Source: an uncultured Gammaproteobacteria bacterium (GTDB lineage: Bacteria > Patescibacteriota > Patescibacteriia > Magasanikbacterales > UBA922). From it: a stretch of 64,000 nt of DNA. Numbering within the stretch: position 1 is the first letter of the stretch; each line of letters opens with the position of its first letter. A program made the translations under genes and the position numbers. The DNA is taken from the NCBI GenBank assembly GCA_965231005.1, contig OZ246405.1:866709-930708 (forward strand). Direction: 5' to 3'. A model generated the notes under the pieces. That model saw only the letters and a program-made list of their open reading frames with translations. It was not told the origin of the DNA and searched no databases. Shown here one piece after another: positions 12,998 through 60,689 of the stretch.

Positions 12998-14023
12998 ATG
13001 AAATTATTGATTGCAAGTACAAATAAAGGAAAGATTCTTGAAATAGAAAATTTTTTTAAAACATTTCATTTTGACATATTAACGCTTGCAGATATTGATG
13101 ATTCTATAGAACCTATAGATGAACCATATGAAACTGAAGTACTCAATGCGATTCATAAAGCACAATACTATGGCAAACAAACAGGTCTACTTACTATTTC
13201 GGATGACACTGGATTTTATGTAGATGCACTTGGAGGATGGCCAGGTGTACACGGTGCCCGTGTTGAAGATACAAATAATGAAAGAGCTCGTCTTGTTCTT
13301 GAAAAAATGAAGGATGTCCCAGAAGGCGAGAGAGGAGCGTCATTTCGTGGAGCTCTGGTACTATATGATCCAACGAATCAAGAGACATTTGTCACTCAAG
13401 CAATGCATTCTGGAATTATTTTGTCTGAGCAAGTAAAGCAAAAAAAAAATTTATTTGGATATGATCCCATTTTCTACGTTCCTGAGAAAAAGAAAACTCA
13501 TTCTCAAATGACGCCTGCCGAAAAGAATAGTATTAGTTGGAGAGGAAAGGCGCTTGAAAGAATGAAGTATTATCTCGAAAAAATATATGGTGGTGTTCAC
13601 ATTGTTGTACCCCTTGCACTGATTATGAATGATGAAGGAAAACTCCTTATGGCGCTGCGCAATGACCCGCACAGACCTGAGTTTCATGAAACATGGGAGT
13701 TCCCAGGTGGGAGTGTTGAAATGGGTGAAGACATGAAAGAAAATCTTATAAGAGAAACAAAGGAAGAAGTTGGATATGACATTGAAATAGTACGTTTGCT
13801 CCAACACATTGAAGTAAAACAATATTCCCCCTATGAGGGATTTTCGTATCAAGTATATCTGGTGCCATATCTTTGTAAGGTCATAGGTGGAGATGGACAA
13901 ATAGAAGATCAAGAAGTAAAGGAAGTACGATGGTTTGAGTTAGATGATGTTTTGAATCAAAAATTGATGTCGCGGAACGATGTGTTGGTAAAGGGCGTAT
14001 TGCCAGAACTAAAAAAGTGTTAG
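12998..14023 (+). CDS. Fusion protein: RdgB/Ham1 non-canonical NTP pyrophosphatase (N) plus NUDIX hydrolase (C)
   Basis: 341 aa; N-terminus LLIASTNKGKILE...SDDTG...GGWPGVHGAR matches ITPase/RdgB; C-terminus has Nudix box GGSVEMGEDMKENLIRETKEEVGY. Confidence 0.75.
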   Translation: MKLLIASTNKGKILEIENFFKTFHFDILTLADIDDSIEPIDEPYETEVLNAIHKAQYYGKQTGLLTISDDTGFYVDALGGWPGVHGARVEDTNNERARLVLEKMKDVPEGERGASFRGALVLYDPTNQETFVTQAMHSGIILSEQVKQKKNLFGYDPIFYVPEKKKTHSQMTPAEKNSISWRGKALERMKYYLEKIYGGVHIVVPLALIMNDEGKLLMALRNDPHRPEFHETWEFPGGSVEMGEDMKENLIRETKEEVGYDIEIVRLLQHIEVKQYSPYEGFSYQVYLVPYLCKVIGGDGQIEDQEVKEVRWFELDDVLNQKLMSRNDVLVKGVLPELKKC

Positions 14024-15629: not shown

Positions 15630-16358
15630 ATGAAGAAAGCGCTCATCATTCTTCCTGGTTGGGGTGGAAGTAAGAAAACATGGAAAGAATTTATCTCTCT
15701 TGCAGAACAGGAGGTTGAAACAGTTTTTTGTATGGAACTTCCATGTTTTGGTGATGAACCATGTCCTTCTGATGCTTGGGGTATTCAAGAATATGCTCAA
15801 TTTGTAAAGAAGAAGATTGAATTATTTAATCATGAAAATCCGGACGCAGAAAAAGTGCTTTTGGGACATTCATTTGGAGGACAAGTTGCTGTTCATCTTT
15901 TAGCTTCTGATAATAGGTTAGTTGATAAACTGATTTTAGTTGGAGCCGCAGTAGTGCGACCTAGAAAGGTGTTGAAAAGATCATTCTTTTTTTTATTAGC
16001 TAAAATTGGTAATGTAATATTTTCTCTTCCAATAGTGAGAAAGGCAGAACCACTTGCAAGAAAAGTACTCTATAAAATAACAGGGTCATCAGATTATCGA
16101 TATACGGATGGTATAAAAAAGGCAATCTTTCAAAAAGTGACAAGACAAGATGTGACGCATGAGCTAGAAATAATTAAAAATAAGACGTTAGTTCTTTGGG
16201 GTGAAAAAGATCGCCACACACCACTCCGATTTGGCAAGCGAATTGCAGCTCTTTTGTCAGATGCATCATTCGTTATGTTGCAAGGGATAAAGCATTGTCC
16301 TCATAGGGAAAGTCCACAGGAAATGATGTCAGTCATTAAGAAATTTATTTATTCATAA
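15630..16358 (+). CDS. Alpha/beta hydrolase fold protein
   Basis: 242 aa; GHSFGG nucleophile elbow (GxSxG) plus later Asp and His. Confidence 0.6.
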   Translation: MKKALIILPGWGGSKKTWKEFISLAEQEVETVFCMELPCFGDEPCPSDAWGIQEYAQFVKKKIELFNHENPDAEKVLLGHSFGGQVAVHLLASDNRLVDKLILVGAAVVRPRKVLKRSFFFLLAKIGNVIFSLPIVRKAEPLARKVLYKITGSSDYRYTDGIKKAIFQKVTRQDVTHELEIIKNKTLVLWGEKDRHTPLRFGKRIAALLSDASFVMLQGIKHCPHRESPQEMMSVIKKFIYS

Positions 16359-16376: not shown

Positions 16377-17999
16377 ATGATTCAAGAATTAGCAAACATA
16401 ATATCATCCTCAACTGTAAATTCTGCGATTGCAATATTGTGGCTTGGGAGTGCATTACTCGACTATGGTGAATTGCTTTATCTTGCTCAGTTAAAAGAAT
16501 ATAGGCTAGATAGATTTAAAGATTTTCTTTCAACCAAGCAAGGAAAAAAGTTTTGGTTTAATTACGGAAGAATGATGCGTCTTTTGCTAGCATTTATGGC
16601 TCTTTTATGGCCAGTAAATGATGTTCCAACTATCAAAATAGTTCTTATTGCACTTCTGACAGTAGATGTAACATATGCCATCTATCATATTTTAAAAAGA
16701 TTATTGCCCCGGCCAAAAATCACTGTAAAAGTTATTTTTATTTTTTCTGTTGCCCTTTTTATAGAAGTACTACTTCTTGGATTAGCTCGTGACTGGGCTC
16801 TTGCATTTTTAATTTTGATAATGCGAGCATTTATTGTTGGCATAGCTATTTCCCTTTCATTTTATCCAACTGCTATTGCTAAAAAATTTATTATTTTCTT
16901 AGCAGCAAAAAAGCTAAAAAAATATAAAAAGCTAACAGTCATAGGGATCACAGGAAGTTATGGAAAATCAACGGTAAAGGAATTTCTTTCTCATTTACTT
17001 TCATCAAAATTTGAGGTTATAAAGACACCTAAGAACATTAATACTGAAATTGGAATAGCAAAACTTATTTTGAAAACAGATTTTTCAAATGCGGATGTAT
17101 TTGTTGTGGAAATGGGTGCATATAAGCTAGGAGAGATTAAACTCATCTGCGACATGGTAAAGCCAAAAATAGGTATTCTTACTGCAATAAATGAGCAACA
17201 TCTCTCGCTATTTGGAAGCTTAAAAAATACACAGCAGGCAAAGTTTGAGTTACTGCGTTCGATTCCAAAAGATGGTCTTGCAGTTTCAAATGTTGACAAT
17301 CCATTATGTAGGGAATTTTTACATGATCTGGAAGCGACTGTGCAAACATATGGATCTGATGCTGAATTTAAGCCTACAGTCATGCTCACAGAGATCAATC
17401 AAGATAAAGATGAAAAAAGTATTTCAGGAAAATCAATTGTTTATGGTGTTGAATACGATATGTCAATTCCTGTTGTTGGAGCGCATAATGCATGGAACTT
17501 TGCAGCAGCCGGGTTGGTCGCAGGGTATCTTGGGCTTTCATATCAGGAGATTAACAACAAAGCGCAAACATTGACTCTTCCATCTATGACACTAGAGCAA
17601 ACACAATATGGAAATTGTACGGTTATTAATGATAGTTACAATTCCAATCCAGATGGATTCAAAGCTGCGCTTCATCTTCTTTCTTCGTTTTCTTCAGCGA
17701 GAAAAAAAATTGTCATTACCCGTGGAATGGTTGAACTCGGTGATAAAAGTGATGAGATTCATGAGGATGTTGCGGGTGAGATTGATTTTATTGCTGATGT
17801 ACTTGTAATTATAAGTGAGGACTTTAGTGAATCCCTTCAAAAGGGAGTTGTAGGAAAATATAGAACAGATATTTTGTTGCGTTACGAGTCTGAAAATCTT
17901 TTGAAGTATGTAAAGTCGTTAAAAGACACTGATTCAGTTATTTTGATAGAAAATAGAATTCCAGCTCTTGTCTATAAAGAAATTTTTGGAGAGGTATAA
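16377..17999 (+). CDS. murF: MurF-like UDP-MurNAc-tripeptide--D-Ala-D-Ala ligase with an N-terminal polytopic membrane domain replacing the canonical N-domain
   Basis: 540 aa; first ~180 aa form about 5 hydrophobic helices; then P-loop GITGSYGKST, Mur ligase central domain, and C-domain NDSYNSNPDGFKAAL...ITRGMVELGD typical of MurF. Confidence 0.7.
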   Translation: MIQELANIISSSTVNSAIAILWLGSALLDYGELLYLAQLKEYRLDRFKDFLSTKQGKKFWFNYGRMMRLLLAFMALLWPVNDVPTIKIVLIALLTVDVTYAIYHILKRLLPRPKITVKVIFIFSVALFIEVLLLGLARDWALAFLILIMRAFIVGIAISLSFYPTAIAKKFIIFLAAKKLKKYKKLTVIGITGSYGKSTVKEFLSHLLSSKFEVIKTPKNINTEIGIAKLILKTDFSNADVFVVEMGAYKLGEIKLICDMVKPKIGILTAINEQHLSLFGSLKNTQQAKFELLRSIPKDGLAVSNVDNPLCREFLHDLEATVQTYGSDAEFKPTVMLTEINQDKDEKSISGKSIVYGVEYDMSIPVVGAHNAWNFAAAGLVAGYLGLSYQEINNKAQTLTLPSMTLEQTQYGNCTVINDSYNSNPDGFKAALHLLSSFSSARKKIVITRGMVELGDKSDEIHEDVAGEIDFIADVLVIISEDFSESLQKGVVGKYRTDILLRYESENLLKYVKSLKDTDSVILIENRIPALVYKEIFGEV

Positions 18000-18004
18000 A
18001 AGGT

Positions 18005-19273
18005 ATGTTTAGGAAACACATTTTTACAGGTTTTGCACCTAATACATCTTTTGAAACAACAAAAAGTGCTTTGTTGTCTTTGGTAGCACCTTGGAAATGG
18101 TTTTCTCTTAGAAAAGGAACATATGTAGGCATTGTCGAAGATCAGCTTAAAAAATATTTTGGTGTAAAAAATGGAATAACATTTGATAGTGGACGAACAG
18201 CATTATTTTTTGCATTAAAAGGACTTGGCATTTCAAAAGGAGATGAAGTGATTGTTCAAGCGTATACATGCGTGGTTGTAAGTAATGCTATACGCTGGGC
18301 AGCGGCAACACCAGTGTATGTTGATATTGATGATAATTTTTGCATAGACCCTCACGAGGTTGAAAAAAAGATTACCCCAAGAACCAAAGCACTGATTATT
18401 CAACACACCTTTGGGAAACCAGCACAAATGGATTTATTAATGGATATTGCAAAAAAACATTCTCTGTCTGTGGTTGAGGATTGTGCACATTCATTCGGTG
18501 CAACGTATAAAGGAAAGAAACTTGGAACTTTTGGTGATATTGGCATGCTTAGTTTTGGTACTGAGAAAGTGATTTCCTGTGTTCGCGGTGGTGCTGTAAT
18601 AACAAATGATCCAACAATAGCATCAAGAATGGAAGAGTATAGCAAAGAACTTCCGCATACGTCATACACAAAGCTCATTCAACACTTGCTTCATCCTATT
18701 GTCTTTCCAATTGGAAGACTATTCTATGGTCTTTTTATTGGGAAAGTATTTCTATGGTTTTTTCACAGATTAAAGATCACAGCTCGTATTATTTATGGAA
18801 GAGAAAAAAAAGGGAATCAGGTTCCATTTTATCCCACAACACTACCCAATGCCTTGGCTCATCTTTTGTCTATTGAGCTTGAGCATGTAGAAGAACTCAA
18901 TAGACAAAGAAAAAAAATAGCTTCTATCTATCAGACATGCCTCAAATCAATGCCTGGATTTAACTGTACAACATGGGATGAGGAATCTGTTTATTTACGT
19001 TTTGCTGTGAGGGTAGAAAAAAATAGCTCTTCTTTATTTTCCTATGCAAAAAAGAAGCGTATTATATTGGGAAATTGGTATAGAACAGCTATTGCTCCTG
19101 GAGATATTGATATGAGTACCACAGGCTATAAAAAGGGGAGTTGTCCAAAGGCAGAATTATTTGCAAGTCAGTCAGTAAATTTGCCAACTCATAGACATAT
19201 ATCGCAGCAAGATGCGCAGCGCATTTGTGCAGTACTTACACAATATGAAAAATCAAAAAATACATCTCATTGA
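18005..19273 (+). CDS. DegT/DnrJ/EryC1/StrS-family PLP-dependent aminotransferase (sugar-nucleotide aminotransferase)
   Basis: 422 aa; DSGRTALFFAL...GDEVIVQAYTCVV...HTFGKPA...SFGTEKVIS pattern of the DegT family. Confidence 0.8.
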   Translation: MFRKHIFTGFAPNTSFETTKSALLSLVAPWKWFSLRKGTYVGIVEDQLKKYFGVKNGITFDSGRTALFFALKGLGISKGDEVIVQAYTCVVVSNAIRWAAATPVYVDIDDNFCIDPHEVEKKITPRTKALIIQHTFGKPAQMDLLMDIAKKHSLSVVEDCAHSFGATYKGKKLGTFGDIGMLSFGTEKVISCVRGGAVITNDPTIASRMEEYSKELPHTSYTKLIQHLLHPIVFPIGRLFYGLFIGKVFLWFFHRLKITARIIYGREKKGNQVPFYPTTLPNALAHLLSIELEHVEELNRQRKKIASIYQTCLKSMPGFNCTTWDEESVYLRFAVRVEKNSSSLFSYAKKKRIILGNWYRTAIAPGDIDMSTTGYKKGSCPKAELFASQSVNLPTHRHISQQDAQRICAVLTQYEKSKNTSH

Positions 19274-20288
19274 ACATCCTCAGAAATGGGAAAAATTTAT
19301 AAAAAAACAAGAAAATTCATTGTTTATTCAAGCTCCAGCATATGGAGATTTTTACGAAACACTGCAAGAAAAACAATGGATTATTGGTGTCATAGAAGAT
19401 GACGAAATCATTGCAGGATCGTTAGTACTTAGTGTTCATGCAAAACGAGGAAATTTTTTATACTTGCCATACGGTCCAATAGTAAGTGATAAATGTACAG
19501 ACGAAGAACGTGAAGTCATATTGGATTATTTTTTTTCGTATTTAAAAAAATTTGCACTAGATAAAAAATTTGATTTTATCAAAGCATCTCCATTTATTCC
19601 TGATTCAGAGCCAAGTAGAAATATGTATGCACGATATGGATTCCGTCCCTCACCAATGCACATTCTGGCTGAAACAACATGGATACTTGACGTAGCAAAA
19701 TCTGAAGAGGAACTGATGAGGGAAATGAAAAAGAATCACAGGAATTTGATTCGAAGGTGCAATCGAGAGGGAGTTGTGGTCGAGAAAAGCAGTAATAAAG
19801 AAGATTTGCAAGGGCTTAATTCGATGATGGATGCAACGGCTTTGCGCCACAATTTTGTTCGTTTTTCAAACAAGTATATTGAAAATGAATTTGAAGTGTT
19901 CTCAAGAAACAACAATGCGCTTGTTTTTAATGCCTATCTTCCTGATGGAAGATTGGATGCGAGTGCTGTTATTATATTTTATGGGGCAATGGCAGCATAC
20001 CGTCATAGTGCATCCCTTAATTTGGACAAAAGACTTCCAACCTCATATGCCCTTCAGTGGGAGGTAATTAAAGAAGTAAAGAGGAGAGGGATAAAGTACT
20101 ACAATTTTTGGGGAATTGCTCCAGATGATTCTCCGAAAACACATCCGTTTTATGGAATAACACATTTTAAAAAAGGGTTTGGAGGATTTCAACAAGACTT
20201 ACTTCACTGCCATGATATGCCTCTTACATGGAAGTATTGGTTTAATTGGCTTGTTGAATCAGTAAGGAAGATAAAGCGTGGTTTTTAA
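19212..20288 (+). CDS. FemAB-family aminoacyl-tRNA-dependent peptidoglycan peptidyltransferase (FemX-like)
   Basis: 358 aa; FemAB-like N-domain and C-terminal motifs (YNFWGI, HFKKGFGG); the true start is probably an internal Met, since the ORF overlaps the upstream gene by about 60 nt. Confidence 0.6.
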   Translation: MRSAFVQYLHNMKNQKIHLIEHPQKWEKFIKKQENSLFIQAPAYGDFYETLQEKQWIIGVIEDDEIIAGSLVLSVHAKRGNFLYLPYGPIVSDKCTDEEREVILDYFFSYLKKFALDKKFDFIKASPFIPDSEPSRNMYARYGFRPSPMHILAETTWILDVAKSEEELMREMKKNHRNLIRRCNREGVVVEKSSNKEDLQGLNSMMDATALRHNFVRFSNKYIENEFEVFSRNNNALVFNAYLPDGRLDASAVIIFYGAMAAYRHSASLNLDKRLPTSYALQWEVIKEVKRRGIKYYNFWGIAPDDSPKTHPFYGITHFKKGFGGFQQDLLHCHDMPLTWKYWFNWLVESVRKIKRGF

Positions 20289-20297
20289 TATAGATGT

Positions 20298-21320
20298 ATG
20301 GGGAAAAGACTCCTAAATCACTATAGGCTGAAACGTAAGCTAGAAACAAAGATTCGTCGTGCGCGACAAGAACTTTTAGCACCTATAGCCCCACATAAGA
20401 GCCGGCATGATTATGCATGGAGAAGAAAGAAAAGGAATCCTTATGCATATGAGCACAAGCAAAGTCCTTTAAAACAGAGGATTCAAATTGTTATTATATT
20501 ACTTTCATTTGTAACAACGCTCGGTTTTATTTTTTTTCACAAGTCATTTCATATTACCACCGTTAGTGTATCAGGATTAACTCGTCTTAGTGAGTATGAA
20601 ATATCAGATGCAGTACTTGGTTCGTTGGATTATAAAAAAGTATTTTTGTTTCCTGCAGCAAGTTTTTTTCTAACAAATGTCCATGACATAAAAGATACAC
20701 TCCATGCTCGATTTCCTGTGGAATCTGTGTTGGTAAAAAAAAGTTTTCCAAATACAATTGAAATTTTTGTTAATGAAAAGATATCAACTATTATATATGA
20801 CAATGGTCAACAATACGCATATATAGGCTTAGATGGAAAAGTTGTAGAGCCGCTTCGTATTGTTGGTGATGATGAGTGGATGAGAAAAACAGAAATTGTA
20901 ACTTCTACAAATGAGCTAGGGGAAGAGGTTGCAGATGAAAAAATCATTGAAGAATCTCACAAACCACCTGTAGCGCAAATATTGAGTGAAATGGGGGATT
21001 ACCCTATAGTCTATGTGGATGATCGAAAAGATTTGAAGGTAAATGATAATGTAATCAAGCCACAACATATGGAAGGAATTGTAGAATGGTTTAATTATCT
21101 TGAAAGAAAGACAGATATTCCAATTGGCTATATACAGATAAAGAATGAAGTGGGGGAGGGGCTTATTACAACACGAGAAGGGTGGAAAATATTTGTTACA
21201 TTTGACAAAACAGTGTCTCTTCAAGTTGAAAGACTTCAAATTATTTTAAAAGAAAAAGTAACAAGACCGAACTTTCAATATATTGATGTTCGATACGAGG
21301 GGAGAGCGTTTTGGAGATAG
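20298..21320 (+). CDS. ftsQ: Cell division protein FtsQ/DivIB-like (basic N-tail, one TM, POTRA domain)
   Basis: 340 aa; Arg/Lys-rich cytoplasmic tail, TM, then a POTRA-like segment (ITTVSVSGLTRLSEYEI...); last gene of the murF cluster. Confidence 0.5.
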   Translation: MGKRLLNHYRLKRKLETKIRRARQELLAPIAPHKSRHDYAWRRKKRNPYAYEHKQSPLKQRIQIVIILLSFVTTLGFIFFHKSFHITTVSVSGLTRLSEYEISDAVLGSLDYKKVFLFPAASFFLTNVHDIKDTLHARFPVESVLVKKSFPNTIEIFVNEKISTIIYDNGQQYAYIGLDGKVVEPLRIVGDDEWMRKTEIVTSTNELGEEVADEKIIEESHKPPVAQILSEMGDYPIVYVDDRKDLKVNDNVIKPQHMEGIVEWFNYLERKTDIPIGYIQIKNEVGEGLITTREGWKIFVTFDKTVSLQVERLQIILKEKVTRPNFQYIDVRYEGRAFWR

Positions 21321-21326
21321 GTAAAA

Positions 21327-21355
21327 AGTAAAGGCACACGGTTACGCATGCCTTA
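21327..21355. terminator. Bidirectional hairpin between convergent ftsQ and the small island gene
   Basis: AAGGCA/TGCCTT stem with a 12-nt loop, A-rich on the + side and T-rich on the - side. Confidence 0.35.
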
Positions 21356-21384
21356 CTTATGCCCTTTTGTGTCAGTTGTTCTTG

Positions 21385-21735
21385 CTAGTCGTGAGGACCA
21401 CTTGCACCAGCAGGGGCAGTCTGCGGGAACAAGTCACATTCACCTTCATCATCAAGCTTGTCATCAAAGCACTCTGTCTGAGGCAAATGGACGATTTTTC
21501 CAAGACCAAAGCCCCATCCCCACCAGACATACTTTCTGTCTTTGTTCGTGGTTCTGTTTTGATCGATTTCGCAGGCGCTGTGTCTTGCCAAGAAAATGTA
21601 GTTGTTTTGGATCCAGATGTGGAAGTTATAACACCAGCGTTTGATTGTGACTGCACGCCTACAGGGATAGGGGATAAAGCCAAACAGGTAGCAAACTTTC
21701 CACCGTCTGACAGTCTGAGTAATTTGGGTTGGCAT
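21385..21735 (-). CDS. Small (116 aa) Cys/Trp/aromatic-rich protein of unknown function in a GC-rich (~50%) island
   Basis: Canonical AGGAGG SD 8 nt upstream of the ATG at 21735, unlike most native genes here; six Cys, WWGWGFGLGK segment; the longer track ORF (to 21918) extends into AT-rich non-coding DNA. Confidence 0.5.
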   Translation of the reverse strand: MPTQITQTVRRWKVCYLFGFIPYPCRRAVTIKRWCYNFHIWIQNNYIFLARHSACEIDQNRTTNKDRKYVWWGWGFGLGKIVHLPQTECFDDKLDDEGECDLFPQTAPAGASGPHD

Positions 21736-22322
21736 AAGCACACCTCCTGTGTGTGGGTCGGGTTCAATAGTTATTGTAACCGTGTCTGATGAATTTTTTT
21801 TGAAATTAAAATAAGAGGGGAGTAAAAGAGTATATATTATGTCATTTGAGAGGATATGTACTAGTGTCGCACATTGTACCTTATGCGACATTTCTACATT
21901 AAAAAAAGCTAAACTCAATTATTTAGGCATACTCAAATATAATATTGCATAAATTTTTGTTTTAATAATATTATTAATTTTTTACATATCTTATATATGA
22001 ATATAACTTTTACATTCGAATTTTCTGTAATTTTAGGTAGATTGGCCACTACCCTATATTTTCCTAAAATAAGCCAAAAATTCAATATTTTACGACACTA
22101 CAAAAATGCGGTTCAAAAAAAGAGGTAGTAGGACATCTCTTTTTATTACAAAAATTTATGTGAAGATTATAGGACTGGATTTAAGGGAGGCAAATGGAAG
22201 TTTGATTCATGAAAATATCAAATATGACATGTTAATGAAGGGAATTTGCTCGTTTATTCAGAGTTGTTTGAAAAGTAAAAACATCATTTAACCATCCTGA
22301 ATGTTGTGCGACACAAATAAAT

Positions 22323-49480: not shown

Positions 49481-49888
49481 TTAGATATCTCTATGAGTGA
49501 AATAGTACCACCATTTTATTGGGTTGCCAAGATATGTATTGCTATGTTCTGTGTTCATTGATTCTTTCTCCTCAATGCGATTTGTATCTTGTTGGATAAC
49601 GATTGAGTTCTCACCAGGTTTGAGCATATTTAACTCTGTTCTTGCTTTTTCCTCAACAAATTCCTTACTTGTTACATAAGATAATATATCAAGAGATTCA
49701 ATTTTTCTCTGTTCAAGATTCTTCACTTCTTGCTCTAATTGTTTTATTTCTTCTCTAATTTTAATATCTTGATAATATGCTCTCGCAAAATTTAAGGCCA
49801 CTAGTATTGCAAGAACAAGCAGTACAATCAAAAACAAGCGTGACCCAAAAAAACGCCGCATGAACGGTCTTTGTTGATTCTTGTTCAT
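49481..49888 (-). CDS. ftsB: FtsB/DivIC-like septum formation initiator
   Basis: 135 aa; TM, coiled-coil, then ARTELNMLKPGE matching the FtsB/DivIC C-terminal motif. Confidence 0.55.
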   Translation of the reverse strand: MNKNQQRPFMRRFFGSRLFLIVLLVLAILVALNFARAYYQDIKIREEIKQLEQEVKNLEQRKIESLDILSYVTSKEFVEEKARTELNMLKPGENSIVIQQDTNRIEEKESMNTEHSNTYLGNPIKWWYYFTHRDI

Positions 49889-49900
49889 ACGCTTAGTATA

Positions 49901-51187
49901 TCATGATTTTGACTTGAGTGCAGTTCTGACTACATCTCTATCATCCCATGAAATCATTTTTCCATTTGCAATGCATATCCCTTGTTCTGAACCTTTTCCA
50001 GTAACAAGAATGATATCATCTTTTTGCGCGATTGAAATTGCCTTTTGTATAGCCTCTTCCCTACTTAACATTTCAAACAAGTCCGTGCCAAGCTGCTTTC
50101 CTTCTTTTTGAGCACCAGCTGAAACTTGCTTTATGATTTGCAATGGATCCTCATCGTATGGATCTTCATCTGTCACAATAAATATATCTGACTGCTTTCC
50201 AATTAATTTTCCAATTGGCTCTCTGCGTGCAACATCTCTTCCTCCACCAGTCGCACCGCAAACATGAATGATTCTTTTGTGATCGAGCAGAGCTACAGTA
50301 TCATACAAAGCCTGCAATGCTACTGGTTCAAACGCATAGTCTACAATAGCGTCAAATCCATATGTCTTCGCTTCTTGGATAAACTCAATTCTCCCTGGAG
50401 GGTTGGATAACTTTTTTACTGATTCTTGGAGTTCAGTCCATTCCATTCCGAGCGATCGTGCAATACTTACAGCAGTTAGGACATTCTGAGCATTGTGCTT
50501 GCCAAATAGTGATGTTGTAAATGGCTTCCCATTTATTGAAAGTGACAATCCTTGCTTGGTTGTTGCCACTTCAGATACAACAAAGTCCGCATTCTGACTA
50601 CCAAATGTAATTTTTTGTTTAAAATTATCGTATAAAAATTCCTGAGCATATTCAGAATCTGCATTGACAACTGCTGATCTATTATTTCCAAGAGAAGCTG
50701 TATATGAAAATAATTTTTTCTTTTCATTTTTATAATTTTCAAAACTTCCGTGTGATTCTATATGTTCTGGATACAAATTTGTTAGAACAACAATATTGTA
50801 ATCAATAAATCTATGTCGATACTGCACAATACCTTCTGATGTTGTTTCTACAATCGCAATGTCACACTTTTTCTCAACCATTTCACGCAAATATTTTTGT
50901 ATTTGCATTTTTCCGAGCATGGTCATTTTTTGATCATTGAGCTTATCTTGTCCTGCAATATAAAAATCGATTGTTGACAATGACCCAACAGTCTTGCCTG
51001 CATGTTCTAGTATATTTCTAAGAAAAAATGTTGTTGTTGACTTTCCTGTGGTTCCTGTAATTCCAATAACAAGAAGATCCTTTGATGGATTTCCATATTT
51101 TGCTGCTCCCCACCACGCATAGAAAAGATGACGAAGATTACGCACAGGTGCTGGGATAATTTTTTTGATAAGACGTTTTGCTCTCAT
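49901..51187 (-). CDS. murE: Mur ligase, MurE-like (UDP-MurNAc-L-Ala-D-Glu:diamino acid ligase)
   Basis: 428 aa; P-loop GITGTTGKSTT, central and C-terminal Mur ligase domains, TDEDPYDEDP resembling the MurE DNPR region. Confidence 0.65.
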   Translation of the reverse strand: MRAKRLIKKIIPAPVRNLRHLFYAWWGAAKYGNPSKDLLVIGITGTTGKSTTTFFLRNILEHAGKTVGSLSTIDFYIAGQDKLNDQKMTMLGKMQIQKYLREMVEKKCDIAIVETTSEGIVQYRHRFIDYNIVVLTNLYPEHIESHGSFENYKNEKKKLFSYTASLGNNRSAVVNADSEYAQEFLYDNFKQKITFGSQNADFVVSEVATTKQGLSLSINGKPFTTSLFGKHNAQNVLTAVSIARSLGMEWTELQESVKKLSNPPGRIEFIQEAKTYGFDAIVDYAFEPVALQALYDTVALLDHKRIIHVCGATGGGRDVARREPIGKLIGKQSDIFIVTDEDPYDEDPLQIIKQVSAGAQKEGKQLGTDLFEMLSREEAIQKAISIAQKDDIILVTGKGSEQGICIANGKMISWDDRDVVRTALKSKS

Positions 51188-58048: not shown

Positions 58049-59125
58049 TTATAATTTTACCAATTGATCAACCACTGAAAGGATAGCTTCATTTTCAGCC
58101 TGTGGGAGAAGTTTATTCAATGCACTACCCAATCTTTGACGATCATCTTTGCTATGAAGCAAATCAAGAATTTGTCGTGATAATTCATCTCTATTGCTTG
58201 ATTCTTCATTTACAAAAATTGCTGCATTGTTTTTCTTCAAAAATCTGATATTCTCTTCTTGTTGTCCTTGCTTTGGGATAAAGATTGCTGCCTTTTTTAA
58301 CGCAGCAAGCTCTGATATTGTTCCAAATCCCCCGCGAGAAACTACAATATCTGCAACAGCATATGCATGTTTCATTTCTTCACTAAAAAATTGAAAGACA
58401 TGATAGTGAGCAACATGTTTTGCAGCATTTTCAGCAAGCTCTTCTGAACGATATTTTCCAGTTAAATGAATAATCTGTGCTTTTCCTTCTAATGCTTGTA
58501 CAGCTTCTACAATCATTTGATTCACTCGAAGCGACCCAGTTCCTCCACCTGTAACAAACACAACTGGTAAATCATTTGAAAGTGAAAACAATTTTCTTGC
58601 TTCTTGAGCACTCCCATGCAACATATCTTTTCTTACTGGATTTCCTAACCATGATGTTTTTGCTTTTGCAAATTCACTTACATCAAGCGGCAGTGCAGTT
58701 GTAATTTTTGTTGCAAATGGTGCAATAAGTCTATTTGCCAATCCTACACGTACATCTTGTTGATGAACCCACGTAGGAATATTTAATATCCATGCTGCCC
58801 AGTGCACTGGGACAGAGATAAAACCACCTGCTGTTACACAAATGCTTGGCTTTTCCTGCCAAAGAACATACAGTGATTGAAAAAAACCAATAATGATTCG
58901 GAAAATATCAATAACATTCCAAAATGAAATATATCTTCTAAATTTTCCTGATGATAAAGAAATAAATGGAATATCATGATTTGCAACAAAATCTTTTTCT
59001 GGACCTTTTTTTGAGCCAATCCAAAGAAATGAAGTATCATTGTATTTCTCACTAATAACATCTTTTATTGCTATAAGTGGTGTTACAGGTCCAAGTGTTC
59101 CACCACCAGAAAATATAATCTTCAT
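58049..59125 (-). CDS. murG: UDP-GlcNAc:lipid I N-acetylglucosaminyltransferase MurG
   Basis: 358 aa; MKIIFSGGGTLGPVTP (G-loop 1), GT-B fold, C-terminal GGFGT-like motif. Confidence 0.85.
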   Translation of the reverse strand: MKIIFSGGGTLGPVTPLIAIKDVISEKYNDTSFLWIGSKKGPEKDFVANHDIPFISLSSGKFRRYISFWNVIDIFRIIIGFFQSLYVLWQEKPSICVTAGGFISVPVHWAAWILNIPTWVHQQDVRVGLANRLIAPFATKITTALPLDVSEFAKAKTSWLGNPVRKDMLHGSAQEARKLFSLSNDLPVVFVTGGGTGSLRVNQMIVEAVQALEGKAQIIHLTGKYRSEELAENAAKHVAHYHVFQFFSEEMKHAYAVADIVVSRGGFGTISELAALKKAAIFIPKQGQQEENIRFLKKNNAAIFVNEESSNRDELSRQILDLLHSKDDRQRLGSALNKLLPQAENEAILSVVDQLVKL

Positions 59126-59523
59126 GCTATTTGTAATTCGTCTTTTACTGAAAGGAAAAATTCTTTGTCACCTCCATATGATAATACATTTTCAATTTCG
59201 TCAATTGCAACCCACAGTGCAGTGTTGTTTTCATCTATAGGTGCCAAATCAATTTGATCAGTTTTAAACAAAAACAATGTAATATGCTTTAGGATATTTG
59301 GGTCAGCACTCGTCCCTCTTGAATATGATCCTAATTCTTTAATAAATTTGAGGTCTTTAATTCCTGTTTCTTCATTTGTCTCACGAATAGCAGCCTCTAA
59401 ATGTGATTCTCCATCATCAACACCACCTTTTGGAAATGAATAGGAATTTGTTATTTTTTGAAAGGTTATAGCAGCCTTTCCAGAATTAATAACAACTGCT
59501 CCTGCTGTTTGTCTGTCTATCAT
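59122..59523 (-). CDS. NUDIX hydrolase (canonical Nudix box)
   Basis: 133 aa; GGVDDGESHLEAAIRETNEETG. Confidence 0.8.
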   Translation of the reverse strand: MIDRQTAGAVVINSGKAAITFQKITNSYSFPKGGVDDGESHLEAAIRETNEETGIKDLKFIKELGSYSRGTSADPNILKHITLFLFKTDQIDLAPIDENNTALWVAIDEIENVLSYGGDKEFFLSVKDELQIA

Positions 59524-60689
59524 AAACTCGCTTCCTTAGAGACATTAATCATAATGCCAACAGCTGCCATGGAAATCATTAAGGCTGTTCCACCATGACT
59601 TACAAATGGCAATGGTACTCCAGTAAGAGGTAGTAATCCTATCATAGCACCAATATTAAGAAAAGACTGTGTCATAAACCATACAAGTATTCCAATCATA
59701 AGGAGCCTTCCAAATTCATCTGGGGTCCTCTGTGCAATTTGAAACCCTCTATAGGCAATCGCACCTAAAAGGAAGACAAAAAAAACAGTAACAATAAGAC
59801 CCATTTCTTCTGCAATAACAGCAAAAATACTATCAGCATGAACTTCTGGAAGATATTGAAATTTTTGTCTTGAATGTCCAAGACCTAATCCTAAAATCCC
59901 CCCTGAACCAACAGCAACAAGCGCTTGGTTTGTTTGATAGCCAATTCCTTGAGGATCCAACTCTGGATGCAAAAAAACAGTCAGACGAGCTGCACGATAT
60001 GGTGCAACAATAATAAGAATAATAATGGCAACAATACCAGCTGCTGCAAGTGCTGTAACATGCGAGAGATTTGTACGAGCAACAAAAAGGAGTCCAAACA
60101 CAATGCTAAATAATATTGAAACAGTACCAATATCTGGTTGAAGCACAACCAAAAGAATTGGCAATATTCCAAGTGTGACTGCGACTAAAAATCCTTCTTT
60201 AAAATCAGCAAGTCTATCCCCTTTTGCTGTTAAGTATGTTGCAAGAAAAATAACAAGACCTAATTTTGCAAATTCTGCAGGCTGAAATGTGTAATTTCCA
60301 ATTGAGAGCCAACTATTTGCAGCTGTATTTAAACTTGTACCAATTCCTGGAATAAATACAAGTATTAAAAGCAGGAGTGTTATACCATATACCGACGTTG
60401 CAAAGTGCTTTAATCGTTGGTAGTGAAGTTTTGAAAAAACAAAAAAAAGTACAAGCCCTGGCAAAAGACCAAATAATAGTTGTCTTTTAATAAAAAAATA
60501 TCCATCACCGAACTTGCTATGCCCAACTGCAGAACTTGCTGAACTGAGCATAACAAGACCAAACAAAAGAAGGATAATAAAGTATGCCAGGAATGTGTAA
60601 TCAGCTTGCTTTTTTGAATGCATGATACGAGCTGTTAAACATTGAGAAAAATAATCAGTGAAGATGCAATTAAAATAAAAATCTGACAA
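59520..60689 (-). CDS. ftsW: SEDS-family peptidoglycan glycosyltransferase FtsW/RodA
   Basis: 10-TM protein with conserved SEDS segments; adjacent to murG, which favours FtsW; the start may be the internal MHSKKQ. Confidence 0.85.
   Translation of the reverse strand: MSDFYFNCIFTDYFSQCLTARIMHSKKQADYTFLAYFIILLLFGLVMLSSASSAVGHSKFGDGYFFIKRQLLFGLLPGLVLFFVFSKLHYQRLKHFATSVYGITLLLLILVFIPGIGTSLNTAANSWLSIGNYTFQPAEFAKLGLVIFLATYLTAKGDRLADFKEGFLVAVTLGILPILLVVLQPDIGTVSILFSIVFGLLFVARTNLSHVTALAAAGIVAIIILIIVAPYRAARLTVFLHPELDPQGIGYQTNQALVAVGSGGILGLGLGHSRQKFQYLPEVHADSIFAVIAEEMGLIVTVFFVFLLGAIAYRGFQIAQRTPDEFGRLLMIGILVWFMTQSFLNIGAMIGLLPLTGVPLPFVSHGGTALMISMAAVGIMINVSKEASL

What the first reader, a model, noticed from the sequence alone, without database searches (positions are those of the whole stretch)
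16377..17999. MurF-like ligase whose canonical N-terminal domain is replaced by a ~180-aa polytopic membrane domain
The Mur ligase central and C-terminal domains (GITGSYGKST; NDSYNSNPDGFKAAL; GMVELGD) are preceded by about five hydrophobic helices instead of the soluble UDP-binding N-domain. A membrane-tethered D-Ala-D-Ala-adding enzyme would be unusual and could reflect coupling to MraY/lipid-linked steps in a reduced cell-wall pathway.
Basis: partly seen in the sequence, partly recalled or inferred. Interest (0 to 1): 0.55.

Follow-up and report, generated by a model that had tools for sequence, protein, structure and literature searches.

The report
Membrane-embedded MurF of CPR bacteria
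This gene encodes the cell-wall enzyme MurF in a form typical of the tiny "candidate phyla radiation" bacteria, where the usual soluble substrate-holding domain is replaced by a five-helix membrane domain; this form is common in that lineage, but I found no paper describing it.

Summary
ORF 16377-17999 (+, 540 aa) is one uninterrupted gene. Residues ~1-186 form a five-helix integral-membrane module. Residues 187-540 form a complete Mur-ligase central and C-terminal module that is clearly MurF-type by sequence and by predicted fold.

This is not peculiar to this genome. It is the standard MurF of Patescibacteria/CPR: at least 587 GTDB species genomes and 658 protein clusters at 50% identity. 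The membrane domain was found only fused to this ligase. In all 82 related loci examined there is exactly one MurF-like gene. In the 13 loci that include both MurC and MraY it sits in the dcw neighbourhood, and there is no second murF.

The only CPR-wide conserved residues of the membrane domain lie on the cytoplasmic face: WQxKEYRxDR, PxxTxK and a basic linker helix.

Best reading: this is the functional D-Ala-D-Ala-adding enzyme. It is anchored in the membrane near MraY, and the cytoplasmic loops replace the uridine-diphosphate-binding domain 1. A less likely but more novel reading is that it works on a lipid-linked precursor; MurE in this lineage also usually lacks domain 1.

The membrane domain has no Pfam or NCBIfam family and no PDB structural analogue, and I found no paper describing it. 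Verdict: a new variant of a known enzyme, of moderate interest.

The parts
16377..17999 (+). Complete gene for the membrane-embedded MurF (540 aa plus stop codon)
   Evidence: Single ORF. An identical protein, P0001, is in public assemblies. AF2 gives pLDDT 92.7 and pTM 0.88.
16377..16934 (+). N-terminal integral-membrane module (residues 1-186) that takes the place of Mur-ligase domain 1
   Evidence: No Pfam or NCBIfam hit. It has five hydrophobic helices and obeys the positive-inside rule. AF2 of the domain alone gives pLDDT 88. There is no PDB structural analogue with E<1. The profile finds 658 clusters, almost all 500-590 aa.
16413..16487 (+). TM helix 1 (residues 13-37), running from outside to inside
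16485..16514 (+). Cytoplasmic loop-1 motif (W/A)QxKEYRxDR (residues 37-46). This is the most conserved element of the membrane module.
   Evidence: Q38, K40, Y42, R43, D45 and R46 are 94-99% conserved over 69 CPR sequences whose N-domains are only 16-60% identical. The motif also served as the scan pattern that retrieved relatives in at least 587 genomes.
16563..16694 (+). TM helices 2 and 3 (residues 63-77 and 84-106), a helical hairpin with a short outside turn WPxN
16713..16730 (+). Cytoplasmic loop-3 motif PxxTxK (residues 113-118)
   Evidence: P113 is 99% conserved, T116 is T or S in 100%, and K118 is K or R in 100% of 69 CPR sequences.
16731..16874 (+). TM helices 4 and 5 (residues 119-137 and 142-166), a second helical hairpin
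16875..16934 (+). Basic linker helix (residues 167-186), continuous with TM5 and leading into the first strand of the ligase domain. K169, A176 and K179 are conserved.
   Evidence: AF2 helix 150-181. A176 is 100% conserved, and K179 and K169 are K or R in 96-100%. The NCBIfam murF alignment starts at residue 176.
16947..17519 (+). Mur-ligase central (ATP-binding) domain. It carries the P-loop GITGSYGKST (16944-16973), EMGA (E245), QH (H275), AKFEL (K289) and GAHNxxN (N374).
   Evidence: Pfam PF08245, E 1.7e-37. These residues are invariant in 120 homologues. Aligned with S. pneumoniae MurF 2am1.
17604..17939 (+). Mur-ligase C-terminal domain with the MurF-type motifs NDSYNSNP (17628-17651) and TRGMVELGD...H462 (17718-)
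   Evidence: Pfam PF02875. NDSYNSNP aligns with SDVYNANP, and MVELGD with MKELGD, of S. pneumoniae MurF.
15630..16358 (+). Alpha/beta-hydrolase gene (GHSFG nucleophile elbow), a conserved upstream neighbour
   Evidence: Pfam. It lies immediately upstream of the MurF gene in 67 of 82 related loci. Only generic esterase hits in the PDB.
18005..19273 (+). DegT/DnrJ/EryC1-type PLP aminotransferase with a hydrophobic insert of ~50 aa, a conserved downstream neighbour
   Evidence: Pfam, matched in two stretches. It lies immediately downstream in 65 of 82 loci. Best PDB hits are sugar aminotransferases.
19212..20288 (+). FemAB-family (aminoacyl-tRNA-dependent peptidyl transferase) gene, a conserved neighbour
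   Evidence: Pfam PF02388. Best PDB hit is S. aureus FemX, lipid II:glycine glycyltransferase, 6snr. Present in 61 of 82 loci.
20298..21320 (+). FtsQ-like gene (POTRA_1), the dcw-cluster marker that closes this gene block
   Evidence: Pfam. Synteny in L004-L032.
49901..51187 (-). MurE (428 aa) that also lacks Mur-ligase domain 1. It is soluble and is the pathway partner of the MurF.
   Evidence: NCBIfam murE TIGR01085 scores 317 bits (cutoff 257), aligned from profile position 74. Only 34 nt separate it from the upstream gene. More than 120 homologues are 417-470 aa (one outlier of 510 aa) and lack PF01225.

Best explanation
The gene encodes the Patescibacteria/CPR version of MurF. MurF is the ATP-dependent ligase that adds D-Ala-D-Ala to the MurNAc-tripeptide peptidoglycan precursor.

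Its ATP-binding central domain and its C-terminal domain are complete and MurF-like. The small soluble domain 1, which in textbook MurF holds the uridine-diphosphate end of the substrate, has been replaced. In its place is a five-helix integral-membrane module with its N-terminus outside and the ligase in the cytoplasm.

The only parts of that module conserved across the whole radiation are two cytoplasmic loops rich in Lys, Arg, Tyr and Thr (WQxKEYRxDR and PxxTxK) and a basic linker helix that runs straight into the ligase.

I propose two things. First, these loops sit at the membrane surface next to the catalytic domain and take over the job of domain 1, gripping the (uridine-)diphosphate end of the precursor. 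Second, the membrane module fixes the last cytoplasmic step of precursor synthesis beside MraY, so UDP-MurNAc-pentapeptide is made where it is consumed.

Shown here: the architecture, the MurF-type ligase module, the topology, the conservation pattern, the synteny, and that this is the only MurF-like gene in the dcw clusters examined.

Inferred: the D-Ala-D-Ala activity, the UDP-linked acceptor, the role of the loops, and channelling to MraY.
For: MurF assignment:
- TIGR01143 scores 243.8 bits over residues 176-524. Four further MurF models come next, and MurD/E/C score 70-78 bits.
- The top PDB sequence hits are all MurF, E 3e-35 to 9e-23.
- The Foldseek top 10 are all MurF: 4qf5 E 5e-27, TM 0.71 normalised to the target.
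- The catalytic residues are invariant in 120 homologues: P-loop K197, E245, H275, N374, and the D419/N422/N424 motif.

E. coli MurF aligns only from its residue ~100 onward, so domain 1 is the part that is missing.

Membrane module: hydropathy and positive-inside statistics, and AF2 with pLDDT 92.7 and pTM 0.88.

The module is dedicated to this ligase and is ancient:
- 658 clusters at 50% identity, almost all 500-590 aa.
- At least 587 species genomes spanning Magasanik-, Peregrini-, Woese-, Levy-, Gottesman-, Wolfe-, Nealson-, Yanofsky-, Kerfeld- and Wirthbacteria, among others.

The universally conserved residues lie on the cytoplasmic face.

Pathway role:
- In L007 and similar loci the order is MraZ-RsmH-FtsL-FtsI-MurE-MurC-(MurA)-hydrolase-[this gene]-DegT-FemAB-MraY-(MurD)-FtsW-MurG-FtsA-FtsZ, with no other murF.
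- All 82 loci have exactly one MurF-like gene, including the 13 loci that have both MurC and MraY.
- In four loci the gene is followed directly by mraY, without DegT or FemAB, so its role does not depend on those neighbours.

Established knowledge:
- Domain 1 of MurF forms the uridine-ribose pocket (PMC11569785).
- Mur enzymes are thought to form complexes that shuttle precursors to the membrane, and fusions with membrane proteins exist, such as MurD-FtsW and MraY-MurG (PMC10214165).
Against: No biochemistry exists for any member. The score is below NCBIfam's trusted cutoff for murF (243.8 vs 288.6), as expected when about 60 profile positions are missing, so equivalence of function is not certified. 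I could not scan whole genomes, so a canonical murF elsewhere in these genomes is not strictly excluded. Ddl was seen near the gene in only 2 of 82 loci and not in this window, so the supply of D-Ala-D-Ala is unverified. I had no model coordinates, so the proposed contact between the cytoplasmic loops and the active site is untested. MurE in the same genomes lost domain 1 without gaining a membrane domain. This shows domain 1 can be dispensed with, and it may instead point to a non-UDP acceptor.
Confidence: 0.62

Rival explanations
1. Lipid-linked acceptor. The enzyme is a MurF, but it adds D-Ala-D-Ala to an undecaprenyl-diphosphate-linked MurNAc-tripeptide at the membrane rather than to the UDP-linked precursor. 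The membrane module and its basic cytoplasmic loops would bind the polyprenyl-diphosphate. MraY would act earlier in the pathway, and the domain-1-less MurE might also act on a lipid intermediate.
For: The uridine-binding domain is gone and a membrane module takes its place. The conserved loop residues are Lys, Arg and Thr at the membrane surface, and they would suit a diphosphate as well as a nucleotide. MurE in the same genomes also lacks domain 1, while MurC and MurD keep their N-domains. [quoted passage not shown] The conserved neighbour, a FemAB-like protein, is closest to the lipid II-dependent S. aureus FemX.
Against: Gene order keeps murF upstream of mraY, as in ordinary bacteria. The short MurE has no membrane segment. 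Nothing known shows that MraY normally transfers incomplete stem peptides. The intramembrane charged residues (D29, K87, E130, R150) are conserved only among close relatives, so there is no sign of a universal lipid head-group pocket inside the membrane. The membrane domain has no structural similarity to known polyprenyl-phosphate-binding proteins.
Confidence: 0.15
2. Pure anchor or scaffold. The ligase still binds UDP-MurNAc-tripeptide with its central domain alone. The membrane module contributes only localisation, or docking to MraY, MurG, FtsW, the short MurE or the conserved hydrolase/DegT/FemAB neighbours. It takes no part in substrate binding.
For: MurE works, presumably, without domain 1 in the same organisms. 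Mur ligases are known to associate with each other and with membrane partners (PMC10214165). Synteny with the hydrolase (67/82), DegT (65/82) and FemAB (61/82) is very tight.
Against: A mere anchor would not need a 10-residue cytoplasmic motif conserved at 94-99% in N-domains that are otherwise only 16-23% identical. It would also not need five helices. These motifs could, however, be a protein-docking site rather than a substrate site.
Confidence: 0.13
3. Diverged paralogue. A MurF-derived ligase that attaches a different amino acid or peptide, or acts on a different polymer, working together with the hydrolase, aminotransferase and FemAB neighbours. The true MurF would be encoded elsewhere.
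For: The score is below the murF trusted cutoff. The four-gene module is conserved. The C-terminal motif is TRGMxELG rather than the canonical form, which I recall as GDMxELG (for this protein's motif; the canonical form is from memory). Ddl is rarely nearby.
Against: This is the only MurF-like gene in 82 loci, including the 13 that have both MurC and MraY; MurE is recognised in 10 loci and MurD in only 4. It occurs without the neighbours in four lineages. All catalytic and MurF-type C-domain motifs are retained. Annotation pipelines consistently call it MurF.
Confidence: 0.08
4. Artefact. The start codon is mis-called, or two adjacent genes have been fused by a sequencing or assembly error.
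For: None found.
Against: The same continuous ORF appears in independent assemblies and in hundreds of species. AF2 predicts a continuous helix across the junction. The short database entries are truncated copies that run into the P-loop.
Confidence: 0.01

Closest known systems
Canonical MurF (UDP-MurNAc-tripeptide:D-Ala-D-Ala ligase; e.g. E. coli 1GG4, S. pneumoniae 2AM1, A. baumannii 4QF5, T. maritima 3ZL8)
   Same: The central and C-terminal domains match in sequence (23-28% identity) and in predicted fold (TM 0.71 normalised to 4qf5). The P-loop, Mg-binding Glu and His, the conserved Lys, the HN motif and the DxYNxNP and ELG motifs are all retained. The dcw-cluster position upstream of mraY is also the same.
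   Different: Domain 1 (about 80-100 aa, soluble, forming the uridine-ribose pocket) is absent. A 186-aa five-helix membrane module with its own conserved cytoplasmic motifs replaces it. The protein is therefore an integral membrane protein, and it scores below the family's trusted cutoff.
MurT of the MurT/GatD lipid II amidotransferase
   Same: A Mur-ligase-family enzyme that lacks the UDP-binding domain 1 and works at the membrane on lipid I/II (PMC6085368).
   Different: MurT is soluble, has a DUF1727-type C-domain and needs GatD. Its sequence similarity to this protein is marginal (27.8-32 bits, against 125 for MurF). No GatD-like gene was recognised among the neighbours.
Natural Mur chimeras with membrane proteins (MurD-FtsW, MraY-MurG), and the MurE-MurF chimera of Bordetella (8F5D)
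   Same: These are precedents for peptidoglycan precursor enzymes fused to polytopic membrane proteins or to each other, interpreted as aiding channelling. The Bordetella MurF part also lacks the usual N-terminal 'cap' (PMC10214165).
   Different: Those fusions join two recognisable enzymes and keep the ligase's domain 1. Here the membrane part is not a known enzyme, exists only in this fusion, and replaces domain 1.
CapB/PgsB poly-gamma-glutamate synthetase (from memory, not tested here)
   Same: A Mur-ligase-fold amide ligase that functions as part of a membrane-bound complex.
   Different: It has a different substrate and product and, at most, a short N-terminal hydrophobic anchor. It did not appear among the family or PDB hits for this protein.

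Membership tests
MurF (UDP-MurNAc-tripeptide--D-Ala-D-Ala ligase) | Mur-ligase central ATP-binding domain with a P-loop and Mg-binding residues | tested here: met
   PF08245, E 1.7e-37. GITGSYGKST, E245, H275, K289 and N374 are invariant or nearly so in 120 homologues.
MurF (UDP-MurNAc-tripeptide--D-Ala-D-Ala ligase) | Mur-ligase C-terminal domain with MurF-type motifs (DxYNxNP; xELG...H) | tested here: met
   PF02875, E 3.4e-10. NDSYNSNP and MVELGD...H462 align with the S. pneumoniae MurF motifs.
MurF (UDP-MurNAc-tripeptide--D-Ala-D-Ala ligase) | The MurF-specific profile is the best match and reaches the curated cutoff | tested here: inconclusive
   TIGR01143 is by far the best model (243.8 bits; MurD/E/C score 70-78) but falls below its cutoff of 288.6, because profile positions 1-63 are unmatched.
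MurF (UDP-MurNAc-tripeptide--D-Ala-D-Ala ligase) | Soluble N-terminal domain 1 that binds the uridine-diphosphate of the acceptor | tested here: not met
   No PF01225 or other hit in residues 1-185. E. coli MurF aligns only from its residue ~100. The region is five hydrophobic helices.
MurF (UDP-MurNAc-tripeptide--D-Ala-D-Ala ligase) | Fold of the ligase module closest to solved MurF structures | tested here: met
   The Foldseek top 10 are all MurF (E 5e-27 to 2e-22). MurC and MurE follow at 1e-18 or weaker.
MurF (UDP-MurNAc-tripeptide--D-Ala-D-Ala ligase) | Sole MurF-type gene, located in the dcw cluster with murE/murC/murD and mraY | tested here: met
   Met for the loci available: one MurF-like gene in each of 82 loci, and in 13 loci with MurC and MraY it occupies the murF slot. 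Whole genomes could not be scanned.
MurF (UDP-MurNAc-tripeptide--D-Ala-D-Ala ligase) | Catalyses ATP-dependent addition of D-Ala-D-Ala to UDP-MurNAc-tripeptide | not testable with these tools
   Needs enzymology or complementation.
MurT (lipid II isoglutaminyl synthase subunit) | Best sequence match to MurT, a DUF1727 C-domain, and a GatD partner gene | tested here: not met
   MurT chains score only 27.8-32 bits, E 1e-5 to 4e-7, against 125 bits for MurF. The C-domain is PF02875. The neighbours are a hydrolase, DegT and FemAB.
MurC / MurD / MurE / Mpl / FolC / cyanophycin synthetase / pseudomurein ligases | Family-specific profile is the best match | tested here: not met
   All score 78 bits or less, far below their cutoffs and far below the MurF models.
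Any described membrane-protein family (for the N-terminal module) | Significant profile or structural match for residues 1-186 | tested here: not met
   Pfam and NCBIfam give nothing for 19 members, apart from a single marginal DUF5968 hit in one full-length homologue, P0074. Foldseek against the PDB gives no hit with E<1.

The most novel reading that the evidence does not exclude
In CPR bacteria the order of peptidoglycan precursor assembly is rewired. After MurC and MurD, which keep their UDP-binding domains, the stem peptide is completed at the membrane on an undecaprenyl-diphosphate-linked intermediate. The enzymes would be a domain-1-less MurE and this membrane-embedded MurF, whose conserved cytoplasmic loops bind the lipid diphosphate head group. 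That would be the first departure from the universal scheme in which a UDP-MurNAc-pentapeptide is completed first and MraY acts afterwards.
Probability: 0.12. Interest if true: 0.85.

Novelty: new variant of a known kind. Interest (0 to 1): 0.55.

Why it matters
Textbooks treat MurC-F as soluble three-domain cytoplasmic enzymes. Inhibitor design against MurF targets the uridine pocket of domain 1. Here, across a radiation that may hold a large share of bacterial diversity, MurF is an integral membrane protein that lacks that pocket altogether, and MurE usually lacks it too.

If the best explanation holds, this is a natural, hard-wired example of the long-proposed channelling of precursors from the Mur ligases to MraY. 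It would also identify a new substrate-binding solution, two short cytoplasmic motifs, that can be tested directly by mutagenesis. If the lipid-linked alternative holds, the canonical order of peptidoglycan synthesis is not universal.

There are practical consequences as well. The family falls below the trusted cutoff of the curated murF model, and its membrane domain has no family assignment. Automated pathway reconstructions and transmembrane-protein censuses of CPR genomes could therefore misjudge it.

Tried and rejected
- Split-gene hypothesis. The short proteins (83-282 aa) that match the N-domain profile were fetched. They continue into VIGITGSYGK or stop at a contig end, and one is frameshifted. 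They are fragments, not stand-alone genes.
- Family for the N-domain. Pfam at E<=10, NCBIfam, and Pfam on 19 members gave only noise. A DUF5968 hit (26.5 bits) occurs in one homologue only and was not reproduced in the others.
- Structural analogue of the N-domain. Foldseek of a pLDDT-88 model against the PDB gave a best E of 1.6. These matches are meaningless.
- Literature. Five searches combining MurF or Mur ligase with transmembrane, Patescibacteria, CPR or dcw found no description of this architecture. The survey of Mur chimeras used only proteins over 600 aa from named species and would have missed it. Subscription-only papers were not searchable.
- Whole-genome check for a canonical murF. 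Dcw-cluster context was used instead.
- Geometry of the loops relative to the active site. The structure tool returns no coordinates or PAE, so this could not be measured.
- Intramembrane charged residues (D29, R68, K87, E130, R150) as a universal polar pocket. Rejected, because they are conserved only among Magasanikbacteria-level relatives.
- GC-rich island at 21330-21790 as a structured RNA. There is no Rfam hit, and fold z-scores are 0.2 and -1.2.
Full report
**1. The observation**

The window is 35-37% GC. It encodes a single 540-aa ORF at 16377-17999 on the + strand. The ORF starts at an ATG 18 nt after the stop codon of an alpha/beta-hydrolase gene.

Pfam places Mur_ligase_M at residues 191-381 (E 1.7e-37) and Mur_ligase_C at 410-521 (E 3.4e-10). 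It finds nothing in the first 185 residues, even at E<=10.

Kyte-Doolittle hydropathy, in this protein and averaged over 120 homologues, shows five hydrophobic spans: 13-37, 63-77, 84-106, 119-137 and 142-166.

Lys+Arg counts per sequence alternate along the chain:
- N-terminal tail: 0.1
- Loop 38-62: 6.5
- Turn 78-83: 0.0
- Loop 107-118: 4.9
- Turn 138-141: 0.7
- Linker 167-186: 6.1

This is the positive-inside pattern of an N-out, C-in protein whose ligase lies in the cytoplasm, as an ATP-dependent enzyme requires.

AlphaFold2 with a 120-sequence alignment gives a confident model, with mean pLDDT 92.7 and pTM 0.88. It has the same helices, and helix 150-181 passes without a break from the fifth membrane helix into the ligase domain.

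**2. Which Mur ligase it is**

- Among NCBIfam models the best match is murF, TIGR01143, at 243.8 bits over residues 176-524, covering profile positions 64-403 of 418.
- The next four matches are also MurF models.
- MurD, MurE and MurC models reach only 70-78 bits. Pseudomurein ligases, cyanophycin synthetase, Mpl and CfbE score lower still.
- The score is below the curated cutoff of 288.6, as expected when the first ~63 profile positions find nothing.
- Against PDB sequences, the seven best hits are MurF from five species, with E 3e-35 to 9e-23.
- Foldseek of the model returns ten MurF chains first: 4qf5 has E 5e-27, TM 0.71 normalised to the target, and ~373 aligned columns, which is the ligase part only. 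MurC and MurE follow from 3e-18.
- E. coli MurF aligns from its residue 102 to 409 at 28% identity. The missing part therefore corresponds to domain 1.
- The catalytic set is invariant or nearly so in 120 homologues: P-loop Lys197, Glu245, His275, Lys289, Asn374, and the D419-x-x-N422-x-N424-P motif.

So the ligase module is an intact MurF-type enzyme.

**3. How widespread it is, and whether it is one gene**

A search of 5.8 billion proteins returned more than 120 hits at 45-62% identity covering ~97% of the query. They are 490-551 aa long. Where named, they are called MurF, from Candidatus Magasanikbacteria, Peregrinibacteria, Parcubacteria or 'Patescibacteria group'.

An exhaustive HMMER search used a profile of the N-terminal 186 residues alone against 1.84 billion cluster representatives. 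It found 658 clusters at E<=1e-3, and 199 at E<=1e-10. Nearly all are 500-590 aa, with the match at residues ~1-180. The short hits were fetched. They run on into VIGITGSYGK or stop at a contig end, so they are fragments.

The 80 best loci are titled Magasanik-, Peregrini-, Peri-, Sacchari-, Gottesman-, Levy-, Woese-, Wolfe-, Staskawicz-, Nealson-, Yanofsky-, Kerfeld- and Wirthbacteria, Paceibacteria, Altimarinota and so on. Some are generically mislabelled MAGs.

The membrane module therefore exists, as far as can be seen, only fused to this ligase, and the fusion is as old as the radiation. The first refutation criterion, that the N-terminal part is a separate gene in relatives, is not met.

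**4. Anatomy of the membrane module**

Among close relatives many positions are conserved, including charged residues inside the helices: D29, R68, K87, E130 and R150.

I then aligned 69 full-length sequences taken from the genome loci. Their N-domains are only 16-60% identical to this one. Only three elements survive in that alignment:
- W37-Q38-x-K40-E41-Y42-R43-x-D45-R46, at 86-99% conservation (W37 86%, E41 88%, the rest 94-99%). This protein has A at position 37.
- P113-x-x-T116-x-K118, with P at 99%, T or S at 100%, and K or R at 100%.
- K169, A176 and K179 in the linker helix.

All three lie on the cytoplasmic face. The membrane-embedded and outward-facing residues are free to vary. That is not the pattern of a passive anchor. 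It is the pattern of a cytoplasmic binding surface held at the membrane.

The module has no Pfam or NCBIfam family. A pLDDT-88 model of it has no structural analogue in the PDB; the best Foldseek E is 1.6.

**5. Genomic context**

In the window the gene lies in a + strand block:
- MreB, MreC, a 177-aa ORF not scanned here (MreD by position?), PBP2, GreA (named from synteny with L004-L006), LysRS, a cytidylyltransferase, HAM1-NUDIX and SerRS
- the hydrolase
- this gene
- a DegT-type aminotransferase
- a FemAB-family transferase
- FtsQ

The hydrolase / MurF / DegT / FemAB / FtsQ order is identical in Magasanikbacteria at ~50% protein identity.

A distant member, P0207 (571 aa), lies in a full division-and-cell-wall cluster:

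MraZ, RsmH, FtsL, FtsI, MurE (438 aa, no N-domain), PgeF-like, MurC, an unknown 340-aa protein, MurA, hydrolase, [this gene], DegT, FemAB, DgkA-like, MraY, then MurD and MurL on the other strand, FtsW, MurG, a probable FtsQ, FtsA.

I called ORFs in all 82 distinct loci and compared them with the E. coli dcw proteins (locus L088) and with the window's proteins:
- Every locus has exactly one MurF-like gene.
- In every locus E. coli MurF aligns without its domain 1 (alignment start ≥ residue 60 in all but two loci, typically 94-103).
- The hydrolase is immediately upstream in 67 loci.
- DegT is immediately downstream in 65 loci.
- FemAB is present in 61 loci.
- 13 loci contain both MurC and MraY, and none of them has a second murF.
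- In four loci (L039, L061, L070, L082) the gene is followed directly by mraY, with no DegT or FemAB. Its role therefore does not depend on those neighbours.

The window itself holds no other MurF-like sequence.

**6. A related oddity: MurE**

The window's only other Mur ligase lies at 49901-51187 on the - strand (428 aa). It is MurE: TIGR01085 scores 317 bits against a cutoff of 257. It aligns only from profile position 74, and only 34 nt separate it from the upstream gene. It too lacks domain 1, and it has no membrane segment.

More than 120 homologues are 417-470 aa (one outlier of 510 aa) and lack PF01225. Most CPR dcw clusters have the short form. L083 and L085 keep a full-length MurE. 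In L007, MurC and MurD retain their N-domains.

**7. Mechanism**

Established knowledge:
- Domain 1 of MurF forms the uridine-ribose pocket of the acceptor site (PMC11569785, read).
- Mur enzymes are thought to assemble so as to shuttle precursors to the membrane. Natural fusions exist, including MurD-FtsW and MraY-MurG (PMC10214165).

Best explanation (confidence ~0.6). This is the working MurF of CPR bacteria. The membrane module pins the last cytoplasmic step next to MraY. Its two basic and aromatic cytoplasmic loops, with the linker helix, replace domain 1 in gripping the uridine-diphosphate end of UDP-MurNAc-tripeptide.

Rivals:
- The acceptor is lipid-linked, C55-PP-MurNAc-tripeptide (~0.15). 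This is suggested by the loss of the uridine-binding domain in both MurE and MurF, and by the MurT precedent: MurT lacks domain 1 and acts on lipid I/II but not on UDP precursors. Against it stand the conventional murF-then-mraY gene order and the soluble MurE.
- The module is only an anchor or docking platform (~0.13). This fits poorly with a 94-99% conserved cytoplasmic motif, unless that motif is a protein-docking site.
- It is a diverged paralogue that works with the hydrolase, DegT and FemAB (~0.08). This is contradicted by its being the only MurF-type gene in the dcw clusters and by its occurrence without those neighbours.
- It is an artefact (~0.01).

**8. Comparison with what is known, and novelty**

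The protein works like a MurF, and I file it as a MurF variant. However, one defining feature of the family, the soluble domain 1, was tested and is not met. The curated score threshold is also not reached.

The sequences are public and are routinely labelled MurF. In five literature searches I found no paper that notes or explains the membrane domain. The one systematic survey of Mur fusions considered only proteins over 600 aa from named species.

I therefore rate it a new variant of a known kind. It is not new as a sequence. It is apparently undescribed as an architecture, and its membrane domain has no family assignment and no structural analogue in the PDB.

**9. Limits**

- There is no biochemistry for any member.
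- Whole genomes could not be scanned for a canonical murF, ddl or alr.
- No model coordinates were available, so the proposed contact between the loops and the active site is unmeasured.
- Ddl was seen near the gene in only 2 of 82 loci and not in this window.
- The functions of the three tightly linked neighbours remain open. The hydrolase has an intact GHSFG elbow. The DegT-type aminotransferase has a hydrophobic insert. The FemAB-type transferase is closest to lipid II-dependent FemX.

Noticed in passing
window 49901-51187 (-): MurE is only 428 aa and lacks the Mur-ligase N-terminal (UDP-binding) domain, and there is no room upstream for it. More than 120 homologues are 417-470 aa (one outlier of 510 aa) without PF01225, and most CPR dcw clusters have this short form. 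L083 and L085 keep a full-length MurE.
   Followed up: yes
window 15630-16358, 18005-19273, 19212-20288; loci L004-L087: A four-gene module is conserved across the CPR: alpha/beta-hydrolase, membrane MurF, DegT-type aminotransferase and FemAB-type transferase. The hydrolase is immediately upstream in 67 of 82 loci, DegT is immediately downstream in 65, and FemAB is present in 61. The module is often embedded between murC/murA and mraY. What the three partner genes do in cell-wall synthesis is unexplained.
   Followed up: partly
window 18005-19273 (+), residues ~215-265: The DegT/DnrJ/EryC1-type PLP aminotransferase carries a hydrophobic insert of ~50 aa (LLHPIVFPIGRLFYGLFIGKVFLWFFHRL...). The insert splits the Pfam match into two stretches and is not part of the aligned region in solved sugar aminotransferases. 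It may be a membrane-association hairpin.
   Followed up: partly
window 21330-21790: A 45-49% GC island sits in a ~35% GC genome just after ftsQ. It is open in four reading frames, and the 177-aa gene called there has no Pfam match. There is no Rfam hit at gathering threshold or at E<=1. RNA folding is no better than shuffled sequence (z 0.2 and -1.2). In L004-L006 this spacer is about 400 nt with no called gene. Its nature is unknown.
   Followed up: partly
L007 15464-18264 (-): In a distant CPR dcw cluster, murD is paired with a MurL-type epimerase gene (PF26299/PF26298). I recall, without checking it here, that MurL belongs to the L-Glu-then-epimerise route to D-Glu known from Xanthomonas. 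A PgeF-like gene (Cu-oxidase_4) and a DgkA-like gene also lie inside the cluster.
   Followed up: no
window 12998-14023 (+): A single 341-aa protein fuses a HAM1-type non-canonical NTP pyrophosphatase with a NUDIX hydrolase domain. The fusion is conserved in Magasanikbacteria loci L004-L006.
   Followed up: no
window 49481-49888 (-) and 58049-60689 (-): The dcw genes are scattered in this genome. A DivIC/FtsB-like coiled-coil membrane protein follows the short murE. ftsW and murG lie 8 kb further on, separated by an unassigned 133-aa ORF (59122-59523). MurC, MurD, MraY and Ddl are not within the 64 kb.
   Followed up: partly
loci L008, L013, L014, L020, L022 and others (record titles): Many public MAG records that carry this CPR-type gene and its CPR-type synteny are titled 'uncultured Gammaproteobacteria bacterium' or 'Pseudomonadales'. 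One protein source names 'Candidatus Bathyarchaeia'. These look like wrong taxonomic labels on the records.
   Followed up: no
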